The notes under the pieces: generated by a model | Told to the model about the DNA's origin: nothing | Database searches by the model: none | What the model saw: only the letters and a program-made list of their open reading frames with translations | DNA from: the human T2T-CHM13v2.0 reference genome, Homo sapiens | Direction: 5' to 3' (one strand) | Length of the DNA stretch: 64,000 bases | Assembly (NCBI RefSeq): GCF_009914755.1 | Contig: NC_060927.1 | Shown: positions 8,766 to 44,552 of the stretch, piece after piece | How the letters are laid out: each line of letters begins with the position of its first letter | Numbering within the stretch: position 1 is the stretch's first letter | Position numbers and translations under genes: made by a program

Positions 8766-12069
<3,304 letters not shown>

Positions 12070-15049
12070 ACAATGAGGACACATGGACACAGGAAGGGGA
12101 ACATCACACTCTGGGTACTGTTGTGGGGTGGGGGGAGTGGGGAGGGATAGCATTGGGAGATATACCTAATGCTAGATGATGAGTTAGCGGGTGCAGCGCA
12201 CCAGCATGGCACATGTATACATATGTAACTAACCTGCACATTGTGCACATGTACCCTAAAACTTAAAGTATAGCAATAATAAAAAAAAGAAATGCCTTGT
12301 CTTATAAATGACATCTTTATTTACCCAAAAAAGAAATAATTTAAAACATTGACATCATTTCCATCATTTTCATACTGTACTCATTCCATACAGGTAAATC
12401 TGGTTTTCAGTTTCCCACTGAAGCTCTATTCCAATTTATTTCTATTATTGCATGTGGGTCTCTAGAGACACTAAGAATCATTTCTTTAAAAGTTATATTC
12501 CTTGAAACCATTGTGAAACAATTCCAGAAACAGTCCCATCCTCACTAGAATTAATAACAAACCTCTCACTCATCCCACCATTCTTAGTAGAGTCCAATTT
12601 TGAGTCCCAGCCATTGAAGCCTTCTCCTTAAATCAGCAGTCAGCAAATTTTACTTGGATATCTAGGCTTTGGGTTTAAGCATTAGGTTTAATTGAAAAAA
12701 ACACACAAAGAAACAAACAAAAAAAAAACAGAAAGGAAAAGAAGAAACTAGTCCTCGGCTCAGCAAATTAATCTGGATAATCCAAATACAAATCCTTTTG
12801 TTAGGGACAGATTTGAAAAGCCTCAATCAACACAAATGGAACCTTTCATAAAAGCTTCTCTCTGCCACATAATATTTCGCTCTCTTATTCTTAAAAAGCA
12901 GGCCTTTCCAATGAGATGCCTAACACTCTGCATTATTTAGTCTTTTTAATCCTTTCTAAAGTTTTACTACATTAAAAAATAAGATCAAGGAATTGCAGGT
13001 GTCACAATAATAACATGTTTCTACAATTTGCAAAATTATTCCTGAAATTGCATACTTTAGCCTATTACTTCCTTTATTTATGCTTATAGTTATCCTTTTC
13101 TATTTTCAATTGTCATTCTTTCCTCTCCCTTTCAACCCTTTCTTCCTTCTCCCCTTTTGCTGCCAAGTACAAAGCCACCTTAGAATATATTCTAGAGAAA
13201 TACATCTTTCCTGATTTTTCAGAGACAGATTCTTTTCATGAAATCCTATCTCCTTTTCAATGGAATGTCGCATTTGGTTTATAGGATGCTTCAAGACTTC
13301 TCAGTTTCTTTGGAGCTGGAGATGAAGGGAAGAATGGAAACTCATAACTTGGAGGAAGTTTCCTATTTTTATCTGTAATGTTCAAGTTGACAGTTCTCCT
13401 TATAGGTGACTTTTATCACTTTAAAAATTGGAGGAGGACAAAGATTTGTCTATTTCCCTTCTAAAGAAAAAAAAAAGCACAGCAATTTTGAAAACTCTGT
13501 CGAAATAATGCTTTCTCAAGGACAGATTGCTTCTTTTATTTCAGAGGTTTCTGGAATTCCACAGCACTCTTCCAGGAGAACCGCCTAGTGTCCAAAGATT
13601 GGAAACGTTATAATTCAGTTGGAGGCCATACACTCAGGAAAATAAGTGGTTAGGCCCAGGAACAACTATCATGATGAAATTTAGCATTTGTAATCAACTT
13701 CGCCAAGAGCTATAGCTCAGCTTCAGGTCAAGATACAGCCAATCTTCATTTTATACAAATGATCTCAGAAGAAATTATTCTGGTCAATTGAATATGTAAA
13801 CTAGGTTATTCTAAATGTGGTTCATTAATTGTATACAAGCACATACCACACTGTATAGTGAGTATCATCCTGTGCTTTTCTGTCTCCATCAAATAGCTGT
13901 TTAATATTAAAGTCAAGAACTATGTTATATTTATCTTTGTTGGCACATACTCAATGTGTAGGAGACACAAGCACAAGTTAGGCATTGTTTTAATGTGGCA
14001 AGCAATGAAAAATGCAACTCAAATTGGCTTAAATAGTAATCTGAGCAATCTAGAAGTAATGTTAAACTGCAGATAAAGCTTGATCCAGAAGCAATGAAGA
14101 TGTCTTCAGGTACCTTACACACTTAGTATGTAAGCAAAAGTTTAAAAGTATTTAAAATTATTTGAGAGTTTATAAGCATTTCTTCCCCAGGGTATCTGTG
14201 GTACCAAAGGAAAGATGATCAGTCCCTTTAAGTCAAAGTCATGTGATTGGAAGAAGATTTAAAAGGGTCTCACACAGCACCCTGCCACAAGTACTTTCAA
14301 ACATGTGCCTAATGGTTGAAAATTATTTAACAGTGGACTAAGGTGTTCTAAAGAGACCAGACTTATAAGGCAAGCATCTTTGAATGAAAAGAAAAACCGG
14401 AACAGATCTTCCCTCCAGAATGAGTGATTGAGAGAATCTTTGCAAGAGAGAAGAGTTGAGTTATGGACCAAGTGGAAGCAATGCATGTAAAGGATGAAAC
14501 CACTGTTCCTGCCACTTGGAGATGTTGTTCCTCTGCTTTTCTCCTCACGAACACCTACTGATCCTAAAAAACCTTGCTCTTATTCATTCTTATATCCCCA
14601 GTTGCTGAATTAGGGCCTGGTTCAAAATAGGCTCTGAATAAATATTTGTTGAGGAAAAGCTTATTGAGACCCATTCTATTGTAAAGGAATAAAGGAGATG
14701 TTGGTCATATAAATCCAAACTCCAGTAGCCCTCATGGCAGAGACATCAGTCATGTTGTGTCTAAGGCCTATCTCAAGAGCAACCCTGAAAAGGCAGCCAA
14801 AGCTTGTGTGAGGAGGACCCCTGGCACCTTGTAAGATCTTATTCTCTGACACAGACTGCACAGATGGGGAACAGTCTCTATACAAAAATACACAGCAGTC
14901 ACTTTCTGATGTTTTTAAAAATAGAAACTTATTTAAAATTTGAATTGTATAAAGTACTTCAAGGGTTTAAGATATCATCAAAAACTTTTTGTTTGCAGAA
15001 TTGTGGGTAAAATGTCAGTTTTGAAAAGGGCAAATTTCTCAAATGCTAT

Positions 15050-15103
15050 TGACAGAAAAAAATTCAATAACAAACATGACAGAAAAGAATTCAACAACAA
15101 ACA
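15050..15103. repeat. 27-bp tandem duplication
   Basis: tgacagaaaaaaattcaataacaaaca / tgacagaaaagaattcaacaacaaaca (25/27). Confidence 0.9.
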
Positions 15104-16768
15104 ACAAACAAACAAAAAGTACCAGCTAAGATTCCTGTTGGGAGTAACTTTTCTTTATTGAGCTTCTTGATGTTTATCATGCATGTCAGGGTGCTTTACG
15201 AGGTGGAAAAGAAAAAAAAGACAGTAGGAATAAAAATATATGTTACATTGACCTCACTCTAAAAATATTTTGGATATTAAATTACAAATTCATGTGGAAG
15301 CTAAAGGAGGAGGAATGAAGTACTTATTTTTAGCTTTATATCATTTATTCATTCTTTTATTCATCCATATCATCCTTCATTTCAAAAATGATTTTCATGC
15401 AACTTAAAAACATTTAAACACTATAGAGTGGTATATGGGTAGCTGTTTAATACTTTACTTTGAGGGTCAATCACTGCAGAGAAAGGACTGAGTGAGGGCA
15501 CTAACTGTCACCCAAGAGTAATTTTTCTGACAATAAGCAAGAGGAAAGACAGTGCAAGAGTTATACATTAAATAAAATGAAGTTTTTATTTAAAAGGCAG
15601 TCCATTTGGTTTTCTACCTGGTATGCCATCCTATCACTTACAGCCAGGCACATTCTGCCACCATAAATATAGACTCTCTTGTCTCTTGGGAAGAGAAGCT
15701 TCAAATTGGTGAGATGGTAGGTAGGATGAATTGGGACTGGATGGGTCAAGCACTCAGCAGAGAGTTGTGAGTTGGGTAGAATGAAATGAGCTCTCTTCCT
15801 CTGTGATCCCACAGAACTCAAATATAAGCTTATTTTCTCTAAGAAACCATGAGGTTGGGAAGAGGGCAGGGTTGAGTAACAAGCTAGATTTGAGCAATGC
15901 CTACATTGAACATGTCACAAACACAGGATCAGAGTGGAAGATGCCATAAGGAATTGCAAATAGTAATTCATGGACATGTCAAGGAGAGCCATGTTTTTAC
16001 AACTCTCCAGTGAAGGAAAGGTCCCAAGTGATATCTAGATTCCATATAGCTGCAGAGCCAACAGCAAGTCACTTTCTGCTTTCCTTCCCTCTACTCCATA
16101 TTTGCCCCACTCATGTCAAGCTTTTCATCACCACTCCTGTGTCTTCTGGCCCCAAATAGGAGGTATTCTGAAAGATCACTACATGAACCTTTCCATTTGG
16201 ACTTCATTCATGGCCTTTCTACACTTGACACACTGAAGCTAACACCTACTTAGGTCTTAGTTTACACATCAGAATTCGTGTCCCTGCTTTAAAGAATCAT
16301 TGACTTTCCCATGGAGAAATTTTTAAAATTGCCTTAAAAAGTGTTAACTAGATGCCTGCATCTCATTACTGTTTCTAATTTCTGTCTGAATACCTCAGAT
16401 TCGGATTTTAGGAAGTTTCATTTTTAGTTTATTCTCATTGAAGAATATACTGAATGAGGTGATCTATGGGACCACCTCTCAAGGGGGAAAAGAAGAGTCA
16501 ACATTATGCAGGCTACAAAAGTCTTACTTCAGACTAAAAAAGTAATTGTAGCCCTGCAAATTGCCTTTATTACCAAAAATATAGCACCTGTCTGCTGAGG
16601 AGTAGCCTCACTTATTTCATATGAAGCAGCTTCTTGATACTAATTACAAACATCATCAAGCATGCTATACCCAGCTGAATTCCTTAAAGTCCAGGCCCAG
16701 CTCACTGCCAACCAAATAGTTCTCTGAAGCAAATGGAAGATACAAGTTTGAGGTGGCACTGTGTGGTG

Positions 16769-17700
16769 ATGACTTCCCCGGAAAGTAGAGTTATAAGAGT
16801 ACTGGAAGGCCCCTATCCTTCATAAATGTAATTGCTAGCTACTGGTACTTGAAAAATAAACAATTCTAACCTCTGTGTATCTCCATTTAATAAACAAATG
16901 GCCCTTGGGAAACTCACTTGCTTGTTAATATATTGCTGTTTGTATTCCTCATTTAATCTGATGGAACAAAGAAAGCAAATAAACAGGCATGATGATGAAG
17001 AACCAAGGTGCAGTCATGTCCAGGACACCTTGTCCCTTATAGTAATTCTAGCTCCAATCCATGTGGACATTTGGGAAGTAATGTGGAGCATGTGGTACAA
17101 GCAAAAAGCGGTGTGACCCCAGACAAATGATCACTTTCTCTGTTAATGATTCCCTCAATGAAAATAAGAGACAAGAGCTAGATAATTATGGAGGGCCCCT
17201 CCCTTAACAACACAGGTGGTGGAGACTGTCTTTTCGTAAGTCCAATCTTCTTTCTGTTGTTTATGAAATAAAGTTCAAATTTATCATGTCAGCTTTACAT
17301 GCCCTTAACAATCTGACCCCAATTTATATTGCACTTCTCTTCCCTCCCCCCGTGCAGACAGCCACAATTTATTCTCAAGAAGGCAGGAGATAAGTACACT
17401 TATTCTGAGCTTCAGAAAATGGGTGACACCTGTGGGCCTTCCCCCATTTGTCCCTAGCCCGAGCTTTTTGCTTCTTTGGATGCCTCGGCTGACCCAGATC
17501 CTGGCACATTGTAAGTATTCAATAAGTAATTGTAATGAAGAAACACAATAACTTACTTCTTCCAGGGCCCTTTATTTATTAAATGAAGATGGACAAAGGT
17601 TAAAGTTGTTTATTTTTCAAGTACCAGTAGCTAGCAATTACATTTATGAAGTATAGGGATCTTCCAGTACACTTGTAGCTCTACCTCCTGGGGATATCAT
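16769..17700. repeat. 137-bp ungapped inverted repeat (arms 16769-16905 and 17564-17700)
   Basis: Hand alignment 118/137 identical; perfect 46-bp core 16818-16863 vs 17606-17651. Confidence 0.95.
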
Positions 17701-18289
17701 TACACTCCCAAGGCTGTGGTCATTTTTATCTTCCATCCTTTTTTCATGCACTTTCTGGGGCCTGGTAAGGCTCCCTGTCTGCCTCCAATTTTTCCAAGTT
17801 CCATATTATCCAGAAGGTCTTCTCAATATGACAGCCTATATTTGTCTTTGCTCTTCTAAAGTTCTATATCAGTTAGCACATCGTCTAACATTAACTCACT
17901 GCTTATTCATTAGTATTTAACATTCCATAGGCAAAAATTTCATAGGTAAAAAAACTCCACGTCCTGCATGTAGTAGCTGCTTTATAACGATGTTTTGAAT
18001 AAATACTTAAACTAGACAAATTTTGAAAGTAGCCATTGAAATTAAATCAAAATACATTGAAAGAAATATATAGATTTCTTTTTTCAATGCATATTCTTTC
18101 AAGAGTTTATTTTTACCTCACTACTCTGAGATTTTAAAATGTGGGTTTCTCTGGAAAGAATTCCATATATCCAATGTAAGAATGAAAATATTTTAAATGC
18201 TACTAAAGGGTTATAGTCATATTCTTGATGAATTCCATATGATTAGGTAATTGAAATATTTCCTTTTTTCTCTTTTTTTTTGCATGCAG

Positions 18290-18885
18290 CATTTATTTTT
18301 AGCTTTATTGAGAACCATTTGCTTACCATAAAGTTAATCCTTTTAAAGTATAGAAGTCAGTAGTTTTTAATATATTAGAGGAGTGTACCCGTCACCACTA
18401 ATTCCAAATTTTTAAAAATTATCTCCCAAATAAACCCTGTATCTGTTTGCAGTTATTCCTCATTCTTCCCTTTCACTGGCCTCTGGTAACTATTAAACTA
18501 CTTTTTGTCTCTATGGGTTTGCCTATTTTGGACATTTTCTATAAATAGAATCACACGACATGTGGTCTTTTGTATCTAGCTTCTTCCACTTTGCATAATA
18601 TTTTTAAGGTTCATTTATTTTTAGCATGTATCAGTGTTTCATTTCTTTTTATGAATGAATAATATTCCATTGTATGGCTATACCACAATTTCTTCATTAA
18701 CTCATCAATTCATAGACACTTGGTGCTTTTCTACTTTTTGGCTCTTATGAATAATGTTCTTATGAACACATGCAGGTTTTTGTGCAGGCGTTTGTTTTCC
18801 ATTCTCTTGGGTACATATGTAAGAGGGGAATTGTTGGGTCAAATGTCAGCTCTGTTTTTAACTTTTTAAATAACTCTTGAAACAG
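18290..18885 (-). mobile_element. L1MB-type 3' end
   Basis: tttagctttattgag...gcctattttggacattttctataaatagaatc...aatattccattgtatgg. Confidence 0.8.
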
Positions 18886-20310
18886 AAATACTGGGGGATA
18901 TACAGGCATAAGATTAATCACACATATTTTATTTGTATTATTGCTAAATGATAAGTCCCAACTTACCCCTCCACTTCTGTAATCAAGGAATTTAGTGACA
19001 CACTTGATTAGCAGCAGGGACACTGAGGAGGGAATTGGGCTTCAGTCATGAGTAGCATGAACTAGTACAGATAGGGAAAGCCTCATCGTTACTAACTCTG
19101 TCCCCACACACTTTGTGAAGATAATGCCAGTTTTCAGAAATCAGTGGGGCAGGAAATGTCAGCAGAGAGAGCAGTTATCTGTGAGATTGCTTCAAGGGAA
19201 TGAGTCCTGAGTCTGATAGGCACAGCACAGGCAGCTACCAATCTTTGGACAATTTGTCAGAAATACTTCCTCCTTTTCTTTATTCTAATTATTTTCTGGG
19301 AACATCTGCTTTTCCTTTTCCACCCCACAGATTATTTTTGTTAACAATCTGGGAGCTAATTTCTTAGTGAAGATCAAAACATTTGAAAGACAACTGATCC
19401 TGAAGCTGATTCTGGAATGTACCTGAACCTGTGTTCCCATCTACAATGATACCTATTTCAGGGGATTGTTTTGAGAAAATATGACATAATCAATGAAAAC
19501 TGCCTGAGGTGGTGTGATCACACAGAAGAATTCTAAATGGACCTTTCAAGTGCTTTCCCTTCTCTCCAATATAATGCAAATTTGGATGGTCCAAAGAATA
19601 GTAGACTTATAGTCAGAAGACATAGATTTGGGTTTCAATTTAGTTTCTACTTACGTTTGTTTTTCTAGTTCTATGAACTTGGACAATTCAATCTAGCCTG
19701 TTTTGGTGTCTAAGATGGAGATAATCATGCCTCCTTTGCAGCTGCCTACCTCTCAAGACTTTCAAGAGAGTATAAAGAAGTGCTTTGTAAATGTATGGGT
19801 ATGTTTACTCTGACTCACATTCTACGAACGTGTATTAATAGGATTTCTTTTTTCCTCCATTCCCTTGACTGGTTCCATTCTTTATTCATGCTCTCATTGG
19901 CAACAAGGGATTTGAGGAAAATAAAACACACCTCGACTCCAAAAATTTGGATTGCCATGGCTGCTATCCTCACTTACCCTATGACACATACATTCCACAA
20001 TATTGGGAATCAAAATTTCCCTTTTCCTGATTTCTGAAACTCAGTACTGAGATAAACATTATGCTGCACTAAAATGAAGGTAAATCTTCCAACATGGAGC
20101 AGTAGCAAGTCCCCAGGTTTCAGAGATGGCACAGAATTATTGTAGGTCTGGCAGAGGTCCGTGTGCCCAGGTAAGTGAGCCCAAGTGTGTAATTTTTATT
20201 ACTAACCCTCCATCATGCTAAAAGCACACAATATCAGATAGACGTCCCTACAAGAACAATGAATGCTTTATTTTCTAGGGGAGGGGGATTCCAAAGAGGA
20301 AAGCCTAATA

Positions 20311-20626
20311 CAGTTATCCCTTGGTATCCACAAGGAATTGATTCCAGGACTCCCTCCGATAACAAGATTGGCAGATGCTCAAATCCCTTATGTAAAATGA
20401 TATAGTACTTGCATATAATCTATGCACATTTGTATACTTTAAATCATCTTTTGAGTATTTATAATAGTTAATAAAATGTAAATGCTATTGAGATTGCAGT
20501 AATATTCTGTTGTTTTTATTTTTGTTGCTTTTTATTGTTGTATTTTTATTTATTTATTTAAATATTTTTAACGTGCAGTTGGTTAAATGGGCAGATGCAG
20601 AGCCCACAAATATGGAGAGGCGACTG
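20311..20626. mobile_element. MER2 (Tigger-derived MITE)
   Basis: ta-cagttatcccttggtatcca...gattccaggac...gatgctcaaatcccttat...atatggagaggcgactg termini. Confidence 0.8.
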
Positions 20627-25249: not shown

Positions 25250-25879
25250 TCGATGATGATGAGGATGATGATGATGATAATGACGCTAACAATAAATAAG
25301 AGAAGCCTCAGGAAAAGGTTTTCATTAGTATTGCAAACAAACTGTAGCCTAACAGCTCCACTGATTTCACAGATCACAGCTGCAAGATCATCTAGCTCAG
25401 TGTCAAGGCAAAAGCAGCAAAAGTCCAGTTCTGTGAATGGATAAGGCTAGGAGTTGGGCAGGTGGTGAACGCTGGGATGCCTAGTGCCCAACTGCAAAGA
25501 AAAAGAAGGCTTTTCCCTGCCCAGAATCACCTTCTCAGGAAAGCCTTCAGTAGCTCTTAAAGGCAGAACTCACTTTAGCTTTTTATCTATTTGCACTGGG
25601 GCACTGTGTTCTCCTGTATCCCTAGCTCCAATGTTAGGCAGGGTCAGGGTAGTAAGTGGCAATTTTGTGTCTGGACCTAATGTATATGGTGGCTCTTGCT
25701 ACATAGTGAAAATAGTAATTCCTACTTTCCTTTCTTTAACAGCAGTCTATATTGAGCACACTGTATGGCCTCCTCGCTGTAGTGAGAAGAAAACAATGGC
25801 CAGCTTAAAAGCAATAAAGAAGGGACCGGAGCAGGAAGTAAAAAGGGAGAGTCTGTTCTGTTTAGAAAAGCACATAAAT

Positions 25880-28283
<2,404 letters not shown>

Positions 28284-38542: not shown

Positions 38543-41235
<2,693 letters not shown>

Positions 41236-42752: not shown

Positions 42753-43928
42753 CCTAGCAGAAAGGTGTGCCTTGCTCATGTGTGAATCACAATCTCTCCC
42801 TTCTCTTGAGCCCTCACCTTTAAATCTATTTAACCCATGGGTTGGATGTTATAGGAGAAAACACTTTGGGTAATTTTTTGGCATAGAAATCTCTCATCAC
42901 CAGGAATGGTTCCAAATTATGCAGTGCTGAGTTCCTACTGGAAATTTTCTGTGCTGTGTAATGTGATTTGTGGTTATAGTTGATTGACCTATAGGTAAAT
43001 TACTCATCCATGCAGGGAAGATAAAACTGGGACCAGGATCTCTTCCACTGAAAATACTCCAAAGCTTTCTCACAACTCTCAGGCTAAAGGGCAAAATCTT
43101 TAGTGGCCATATTAGTCAGGGTAAGCTAAGGCTGAAACAGCCCCAACATATCAGTGGTTTAATCTAATAAAGATTTATTTCTTGTTTCATTTCCAATCCA
43201 AACAAGTTGGCAGAAAATGGGTCTGTTTTGTGCAGTCATTTCAGGGATTAGGTACCTTCTAATTTGAGGCTCCACCACTCTTTAGAGTTTTGTTAATGAC
43301 TAGCAGATAAAATAAGAAAGAGTGGGGTTTTAGTAGGAGGTTTAAGGCCTGGAGGTGATCCTTATTAATTTCCACCCATATTTCATTAGCCAGAACCTAC
43401 TCAGATGGCTGCACCTAATTGCAAATCTGGCTGTAGGCCCAGGAGGAGAAGGTAGGGTTTGGTGAACAGAAATGTTTCTCTTACATGTGGCTTTTAAGGC
43501 CTTTTGTGATCTAGTCACTACCTATTACTACACAAATCCATTCTGTTCCAACCTCAGGGCATATGCTTCTCATTCATGTAAAATATTCTTTATCCCATTG
43601 TTGCCTTGTAAACTTCTAATTAGCCTTCCAATTGTAACACTCAATTGCAACTTCCATTTATAACTAGGAAGGTAACTAGGGACAGGTTGTCCTAATATGC
43701 ATATTTTAATAAAATAATTTGCCTCTCCTTGAAATTCAAATAATTTTAATTATGCTGATATTTGTGTGATTACTTCATTAATTCTACATTCTCTATTCAT
43801 TCTACATTCCTCATGGGGCTGTAAATCCCATGAGAGTAGAGGCTATTTAGTTATGTTCATTGGATCCCTATTGCCTATCACTGTGTTGAGCAAATAGTAG
43901 GCATTCAATGAATATTTGCTTAATGAAT

Positions 43929-44348
43929 GGAAGGAAGGAAGGAAGGAAGGGAGGGAAGGAAGGAAGGAGGGAAGGAAGGAAAGAAGGAAGGAAGAAGGGA
44001 AGGGAGGAAAGAAGGAAGGAAGAAGGGAAGGGAGGAAGAAAGGAAGGAAGTGAGGAAGGGAGGGAGGAAGGAAAGAAAGAAGGAAGGGGGGGAGGAAGAA
44101 AGGAAGGAAGGAAGTGAGGAAGGAAGGAAAGAAGGAAGGAAAGAAGGAGGGAGGGAGGGAAGGAAGGAAAGAGGGAGGGAGAGAAGGAAGGGAAGGAGAG
44201 GGAAAGGAAAGGAAGGGAAGGGGAGGGGAGGGAAGGCAAGGGAGAGGAGTAAGGGAAGGAAGGGAAGGGAAGGAAAGGAGGAAAAGAAGGAAGGAAGGAA
44301 AAAAGGAAGAAGGAAGAAAGGAAGGAATGAAGAAGGGAGGAAGGAAGA
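43929..44348. repeat. About 420-bp GGAA/GGGA/GAAA polypurine tract at the end of an L2
   Basis: Only five pyrimidines counted on the + strand; follows the L2 tail ...gcattcaatgaatatttgcttaatgaatgg. Confidence 0.97.
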
Positions 44349-44552
44349 TAAGTAGAGCTGTTTTTTGTTATGGTTACATTCTGGAAAGAAGTTTCTGTTT
44401 TCCATGTTGTTGAGATTCCTTTTTTTTCATTACTCTTGTATGGTCAACCCCTCCTTCAATTCTTTGAGACCCCAAAAGTTTTTCTGATAAATCCCCCCTT
44501 GAAGCTTAAACAGAGCCAGTTTATATTGCTTCCTAACAAAATAATTCCAAGT

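What the first reader, a model, noticed from the sequence alone, without database searches (positions are those of the whole stretch)
16769..17700. 137-bp gap-free inverted repeat with a perfect 46-bp core
Seen: arms 16769-16905 and 17564-17700 align without gaps (19 mismatches) around a 658-bp spacer. All mismatches lie in the flanks (11/49 and 8/42), while the centre cttcataaatgtaattgctagctactggtacttgaaaaataaacaa is identical. The arms are not a recognisable young repeat; at most they have a faint MIR-like flavour. Inference: an old inverted duplication whose core is kept identical either by arm-to-arm conversion or recurrent micro-inversion, or by selection on an RNA duplex. Mismatches show no clear strand bias for G-U wobble (6 on plus, 8 on minus), so RNA selection is not evident from sequence alone.
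Basis: partly seen in the sequence, partly recalled or inferred. Interest (0 to 1): 0.7.

Follow-up and report, generated by a model that had tools for sequence, protein, structure and literature searches.

The report
Old inverted duplication, recopied core
Between genes on human chromosome 3, a roughly 170-letter stretch sits as two mirror-image copies about 660 letters apart whose middle 46 letters are identical, likely because one copy was later recopied from the other during DNA replication or repair; no function is evident.

Summary
The repeat is real: 137 gap-free columns, 19 mismatches, a 46-bp perfect core. It reaches further than reported: a 13/15 block at 16733-16747 lies on the same diagonal (P about 1e-4 per end), giving 173-bp arms. 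Identity changes in steps: core 46/46, flanks 72/91, plus an 18-nt stretch at 3/18. The core is unlikely under uniform decay (P 0.004-0.005; 1 of 151 matched repeat windows), but the locus was picked from a genome scan, so chance remains. Arms and spacer matched only this locus, while old repeats nearby gave many hits. No target-site duplication, Rfam match, significant MIR match or G-U strand bias was found. No inversion here is listed in a 65-genome table or, by my estimated coordinates, in a human-chimpanzee table. Best reading (0.5): an old local inverted duplication whose core was later overwritten once by template switching or short gene conversion. Rivals: chance 0.2, selection 0.18, recurrent flipping 0.07, transposon ends 0.05. 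No other mammal could be examined. Known kind, modest interest.

The parts
16733..16905 (+). Left arm of the inverted repeat, extended (173 nt, gap-free against the right arm, 136/173 matches)
16733..16747 (+). Outer remnant block, 13/15 matches on the same diagonal (partner 17722-17736)
16748..16765 (+). Length-preserving scrambled stretch, 3/18 matches to partner 17704-17721; no clean microinversion or local template found
16769..16817 (+). Outer flank, 11/49 mismatches, K2P 0.28
16818..16863 (+). Perfect 46-bp core of the left arm, 28% GC, no CpG
16864..16905 (+). Inner flank, 8/42 mismatches, K2P 0.23
16906..17563 (.). 658-nt spacer; only this locus in the genome search, no self-complementarity above background
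17500..17521 (+). Possible MIR/L2 3'-tail remnant inside the spacer (weak, E=0.28; family name recalled)
17606..17651 (-). Perfect 46-bp core of the right arm
17564..17736 (-). Right arm of the inverted repeat, extended

Best explanation
This is an inverted repeat found at one locus only, with 173-bp arms about 660 bp apart, that likely arose as a local opposite-strand duplication tens of millions of years ago, and whose central 46 bp were likely overwritten later by one arm-to-arm copying event (template switch or short gene conversion). Shown: the arms, the step-wise identity (core 46/46, flanks 72/91) and the lack of other matches in the genome searches. Inferred step 1: a templated duplication put a reversed copy under 1 kb away. 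Inferred step 2: the arms decayed neutrally to about 0.25 substitutions per site, roughly 55-80 Myr by recalled primate rates. Inferred step 3: pairing of the two arms in single-stranded DNA during replication or repair let a tract of up to 46 nt be copied across. The core differs by at most 0.063 (95% bound), roughly within the last 25 Myr by the same recalled rates. No function is needed.
For: The core is longer than uniform decay predicts: P 0.0037-0.005, 1 of 300 permutations and 1 of 151 empirical windows. Mismatch density is flat in both flanks (11/49, 8/42) and drops to zero abruptly, as a single tract would give. The mismatch spectrum looks neutral: 14 transitions of 19 against 59% in local repeats (P=0.25), with no strand bias of G-U (6 vs 8, P=0.79). 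Arm, spacer and core hit only this locus. The same tool gave 101 matches for an old palindromic repeat nearby and 39 other listed places for an old repeat at about 18284-18878. Both component processes are described in humans: 21 of 166 local rearrangements in one cell line were opposite-strand non-tandem duplications (PMC5829575 Table 2), and near-perfect inverted repeats are converted to perfect ones (PMC5453318, PMC7954356). Template-switch regions are AT-richer than background (PMC7954356 section 10); this core is 28% GC.
Against: No orthologue could be examined, so no step is directly dated or polarised. The locus was chosen from a genome-wide scan, so P of about 0.004 per repeat may be met by chance somewhere. 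Runs of 43-52 nt occur in 4 of the 24 local direct-repeat pairs listed (82-90% identity; one is a 178-nt pair at 90% with a run of 49). The cores are 742 nt apart, far beyond the +/-100 nt searched in apes and the <=70-nt spacers in yeast, where shorter spacers are favoured. Arms about 21% diverged are poor substrates for homologous conversion (established knowledge). The 18-nt scrambled stretch is not explained.
Confidence: 0.5

Rival explanations
1. One old inverted duplication that has decayed uniformly to about 86%; the 46-bp run is a lucky gap among 19 mismatches, picked out by a genome-wide scan.
For: The per-repeat probability is only 0.004-0.007. No other single-copy local inverted pair was found in 264 kb. 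That bounds their number only to under about 35,000 genome-wide (my extrapolation), enough for chance cores. Comparable runs occur in some direct repeat pairs. The mismatch spectrum is neutral.
Against: The heterogeneity test is significant (1 of 300; 0 of 300 for the 173-nt span). G/C weighting does not remove it. The outer block plus scrambled stretch show that the arms did not decay uniformly.
Confidence: 0.2
2. Both cores are held by purifying selection, either as two copies of a DNA regulatory motif cluster or as the stem of a long-range RNA duplex in an unannotated or read-through transcript (LRRC3B ends about 25 kb upstream on +).
For: Both strands are predicted to fold the arms into one long stem (-370 and -402 kcal/mol), which any such repeat would do. 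The core holds short forkhead-like and homeobox-like words (motif names recalled, untested). A sharp conserved core in decayed flanks is also what constraint looks like.
Against: No gene, lncRNA or RefSeq functional element is annotated here (hub annotation). Rfam gives nothing at the repeat. G-U shows no strand bias. The core contains no wobble pair at all, which suits DNA copying better than RNA selection (inference). The motifs are common in AT-rich DNA.
Confidence: 0.18
3. The spacer flips repeatedly by recombination within the core, and each flip re-homogenises the core (a small version of the FLNA-EMD type of recurrent inversion).
For: Recurrent inversions between inverted repeats are common in humans and apes, with breakpoints in the high-identity part of the repeats (PMC3961182 passages). 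A peak of identity at the crossover site is expected.
Against: None of the 6 chr3 rows in the CHM13-based inversion table of 65 genomes lies here (PMC12350169 Table 37). No coordinate beginning 2675 occurs among the 1,576 human-chimpanzee candidates (PMC1270012; the hg17 position is my recalled estimate). The known recurrent inversions seen were 5.1-226 kb. An AT-rich core does not suggest long-term GC-biased conversion (bias seen only in abstracts of PMC8981503 and PMC3723533).
Confidence: 0.07
4. The arms are the long terminal inverted repeats of one old, low-copy DNA transposon.
For: The geometry (about 1 kb, long inverted ends) resembles Mutator- or Merlin-type elements (recalled). Very old low-copy families would escape the search used.
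Against: No target-site duplication was found: the only hit among ends 16690-16789 (+/-3) was one 4-mer. The ends fade rather than stop sharply. Neither arm nor spacer has another match, while old repeats nearby do. The region is not masked in NCBI's file (hub annotation). It would not explain the perfect core.
Confidence: 0.05

Closest known systems
Quasipalindrome-to-palindrome template switching / four-point model (Loytynoja & Goldman 2017, PMC5453318; Walker et al. 2021, PMC7954356; Abraham & Hazkani-Covo 2021, PMC8604942)
   Same: An imperfect inverted repeat with one perfect tract. The tract length (up to 46) is within the reported range (median 12, maximum 128). AT-rich context.
   Different: Template and target are 742 nt apart, against +/-100 nt searched in apes and <=70-nt spacers in yeast. 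The before and after states are not seen here.
Local opposite-strand non-tandem duplication (Frith & Khan 2018, PMC5829575)
   Same: A short segment copied nearby in reverse orientation, with no repeat family involved.
   Different: Those are recent polymorphic events seen in reads; this one is old and diverged, with a second layer of identity.
Inverted-repeat-mediated recurrent inversions (Aguado et al. 2014, PMC3961182; InvFEST catalogue, PMC13629690)
   Same: An inverted pair with a zone of highest identity, where exchange could occur.
   Different: The catalogue required >90% identity for repeats found by BLAST; these arms are 86% or less and only 0.17 kb. No inverted allele is listed in the tables I could read.
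Human-chimpanzee microinversions flanked by inverted repeats (Potapova et al. 2022, PMC8755829)
   Same: Inverted repeats flanking a segment that could invert; 'bubbles' of clustered mismatches such as the 18-nt stretch.
   Different: Those are 17-33 nt long; this spacer is 658 nt, and the bubble is not a clean inversion.

Membership tests
Template-switch / conversion-homogenised inverted repeat | Perfect tract inside an imperfect inverted repeat, longer than uniform decay predicts | tested here: met
   P 0.0037-0.005; 1 of 300; 1 of 151; not corrected for genome-wide picking
Template-switch / conversion-homogenised inverted repeat | Cluster of differences from the ancestral state in one arm, explained by the other arm | not testable with these tools
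   No other mammal genome is held
Template-switch / conversion-homogenised inverted repeat | Short range as described (template within about 100 nt) | tested here: not met
Recurrent IR-mediated inversion | Both spacer orientations among humans or apes | tested here: inconclusive
   Absent from 6 chr3 rows and, by estimated coordinates, from 1,576 human-chimp candidates; two other catalogues could not be read
Recurrent IR-mediated inversion | Repeats of >90% identity | tested here: not met
   86% over 137-140 nt; criterion
DNA transposon with long TIRs | Target-site duplication at symmetric ends | tested here: not met
   an old TSD could have decayed
DNA transposon with long TIRs | Other copies in the genome | tested here: not met
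   with control 54; the tool warns that no match does not prove rarity
DNA transposon with long TIRs | Match to a Dfam/Repbase family | not testable with these tools
   No such library is held
MIR SINE | Match of the arms to a MIR profile | tested here: not met
   Profile of 13 local copies: E=6.4 or worse in the arms; a small profile, so faint remnants can be missed
Selected long-range RNA duplex | Known RNA family | tested here: not met
   Rfam, E<=5, 14000-20500: one chance-level hit at 19847-19925, none at the repeat
Selected long-range RNA duplex | Excess of G-U on one strand | tested here: not met
   6 vs 8, P=0.79
Selected long-range RNA duplex | Transcription across both arms, editing or duplex reads, covariation across species | not testable with these tools
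   No expression data or mammal alignments; no annotated transcript

The most novel reading that the evidence does not exclude
The repeat is shared across placental mammals, and its 46-bp core has been kept identical within each lineage by repeated arm-to-arm copying over 0.75 kb, or by selection on a long-range duplex of an LRRC3B read-through RNA. That would be concerted evolution of a sub-200-bp, non-repetitive, intergenic inverted pair, well beyond the range at which template switching has been surveyed in apes.
Probability: 0.2. Interest if true: 0.65.

Novelty: new member of a known kind. Interest (0 to 1): 0.3.

Why it matters
If the best reading holds, this is a compact natural record of arm-to-arm copying between short arms about 21% diverged and 0.75 kb apart. 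The ape template-switch survey searched only +/-100 nt and the inversion catalogue asked for >90% identity, so such a case falls between them. It also warns that perfect long-range complementarity in non-coding DNA can arise without RNA function. As a single locus with no annotation it changes little; one look at mammal alignments would settle it.

Tried and rejected
Repeat origin. DNA searches of the own genome with the left arm, spacer, right arm and a 3.5-kb span, and a pattern search with the core (up to 3 mismatches), found only this locus for the repeat. A two-arm profile over 264 kb gave no other hit better than E=0.1. Two profiles grown from weak hits were unrelated interspersed repeats and did not match the locus. 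A MIR-type profile missed the arms. The L2-tail profile was mostly AT-rich noise and is uninformative. A profile search of the whole genome was not available, so very old low-copy families stay open.

Other features. Target-site duplication: none. Rfam: none. Coding: one 72-aa ATG frame at 16898-17116, not pursued. Tandem repeats: none in the arms. Homology did not extend significantly inward (P=0.37, 0.85) or far outward (P=0.48). A microinversion for the 18-nt bubble gave at best 12/25 inverted against 8/25 direct, and the best local template was 11/18; rejected. AT-richness as the cause of the core was rejected.

Baseline. It is limited to 264 kb around the locus, so the genome-wide number of such repeats is unknown.

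Literature. Nine searches showed no paper on this locus in their listings. The inversion table of PMC13629690 was not among the held files (no 'chr3' hits). The PMC12350158 file was cut and showed no inversion rows. The PMC8755829 supplement is an image. Three papers were not held. These unseen tables may list the locus.

Full report
Observation. The repeat is as described. Arms 16769-16905 and 17564-17700 align without gaps, with 19 mismatches in 137 columns, a 658-nt spacer and a perfect core at 16818-16863 / 17606-17651. Of the mismatches 14 are transitions and 5 transversions; G-U is possible at 6 on + and 8 on -. The window is human chr3 (hub annotation), so the element lies at T2T chr3:26,738,733-26,739,736, about 25 kb past the end of LRRC3B, with no annotated gene or functional element.

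On the same diagonal, matches per 20-nt bin from 16720 to 16919 run 10, 8, 12, 14, 17, 20, 20, 15, 17, 13, then fall to 4. A block at 16733-16747 matches 13/15 with 10 in a row; random diagonals give this in 0.7-1.1e-4 of 50-nt stretches. The duplicated tract was therefore at least 173 nt. Between that block and the main arm, 18 nt match at 3/18 with no length change. This is not a clean microinversion (best 12/25 inverted against 8/25 direct) and has no local template (best 11/18); it stays unexplained. K2P distances are 0.28 (outer flank), 0 (core; 95% upper bound 0.063) and 0.23 (inner flank). Gapped searches inward and far outward were not significant.

Is the core more than chance? With 19 mismatches placed at random, a run of 46 or more arises with P=0.0037, and 0.004-0.005 if G/C sites are made up to three times as mutable. 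A best-core likelihood test was reached in 1 of 300 permutations for the 137-nt span and 0 of 300 for the 173-nt span. Among 151 gap-free 137-nt windows with 17-21 mismatches from dispersed repeat pairs in the surrounding 264 kb, 1 had such a run (median 23); these windows are not independent. Of 38 local repeat pairs (gap <=3 kb, >=60 nt) this was the only single-copy one, and the longest run among the other 13 inverted pairs was 37. Against my reading, 4 of the 24 direct pairs had runs of 43-52 at 82-90% identity. Among 11 single-copy exact inverted matches of >=16 nt (75 in all), this is the longest; the next is 21. Being gap-free is common (67 of 319). So the core is unusual per repeat, but the locus was picked from a genome-wide scan and the number of comparable repeats is unknown. 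Chance keeps 0.2.

Is it a transposon? The left arm, right arm, spacer and core matched only this locus. As controls, an old palindromic repeat nearby gave 101 matches at 67-100% identity. A 3.5-kb query gave 39 other listed places, all for an old repeat at about 18284-18878 at 69-79%, and none for arms or spacer (40 of 5,745 candidates were scored). The tool warns that no match does not prove rarity. There is no target-site duplication. A profile of 13 local MIR-like copies hit only 22 nt in the spacer at E=0.28, so the MIR flavour of the arms is unsupported. No Dfam library was available.

Is it an RNA structure? Both strands are predicted to pair the arms (-370 and -402 kcal/mol), as is the DNA strand; this follows from the repeat and shows no function. 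Rfam has nothing at the repeat. G-U has no strand bias (P=0.79) and the transition share does not differ from local repeats (P=0.25). Expression, editing and conservation could not be examined.

Does the spacer flip? Table 37 of PMC12350169 (CHM13-based inversions, 65 samples; I read the part holding all 6 chr3 rows) has none here, though it lists events as small as 114 and 520 bp. The supplements of PMC1270012 (1,576 human-chimpanzee candidates on hg17; passages and supplement search seen) have no coordinate starting 2675, my recalled estimate of the position. The tables of PMC13629690 (abstract, one methods section and supplement searches seen) and PMC12350158 (supplement search only) could not be reached.

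Mechanism. I commit to a two-step neutral history (0.5). [quoted passage not shown] Step 2, inferred: decay to about 0.25 substitutions per site, some 55-80 Myr by recalled rates. Step 3, inferred: one later arm-to-arm copy of up to 46 nt. Conversion of near-perfect to perfect inverted repeats is described in humans and apes (PMC5453318, passages; PMC7954356, passages and section 10; copied tracts median 12, maximum 128; AT-rich surroundings) and in yeast (PMC8604942, passages). It can maintain stems without selection (PMC8794818, passages, whose authors allow for longer distances). The step-like edges, the absence of wobble pairs and the AT-rich core fit one copying event better than long GC-biased conversion (PMC8981503, PMC3723533: listing and abstract start only). 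Against it: the cores are 742 nt apart, beyond the ranges surveyed, the arms were about 21% diverged, and no orthologue was seen.

Comparison and novelty. It works like quasipalindrome correction but fails the short-range criterion. It resembles inverted-repeat-mediated recurrent inversions (PMC3961182, passages) but fails their identity criterion and lacks a listed inverted allele. It differs from the 17-33-nt microinversions of PMC8755829 (first fifth of the text seen). Nine literature searches showed no paper on this locus in their listings; the library lacks most subscription papers. Verdict: a real feature and a new member of a known kind, interest 0.3. The novel case, mammal-wide concerted evolution or a selected duplex, has probability 0.2 and would deserve 0.65.

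Noticed in passing
window 18284-18878: Old interspersed repeat not among the longest masked stretches the hub lists; 39 other listed places at 69-79% identity. Family not determined.
   Followed up: partly
window 25879-27157 vs 38976-40255; 10796-11404 vs 25884-26493: Long inverted pairs at 94-97% identity, 12-15 kb apart, inside masked repeats; probably young L1 copies (inference) and possible substrates for inversion.
   Followed up: no
window 15050-15103: Two-copy 27-nt tandem repeat, 92% matches.
   Followed up: no
window 43922-44357: Low-copy local direct repeat array, units about 110-140 nt apart at 77-81% identity.
   Followed up: no
L007:6134-6247 and L008:1630-1748: Old palindromic repeats of about 115 nt; the first has many genome-wide matches, probably a MITE-type DNA transposon (recalled).
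   Followed up: partly
window 16855, 16889 (+) and 17614, 17580 (-): Each arm holds two AATAAA words; 6 on + and 8 on - occur in 2.5 kb, so this is not unusual.
   Followed up: partly
window 16898-17116 (+): 72-aa ATG frame starting at the inner end of the left arm; no evidence that it is a gene.
   Followed up: no
264-kb stretch, window-relative 147175-147352 vs 148984-149160: Direct repeat pair of 178 nt at 90% with a 49-nt perfect run, 1.6 kb apart, in multi-copy DNA; a comparator for local conversion.
   Followed up: no
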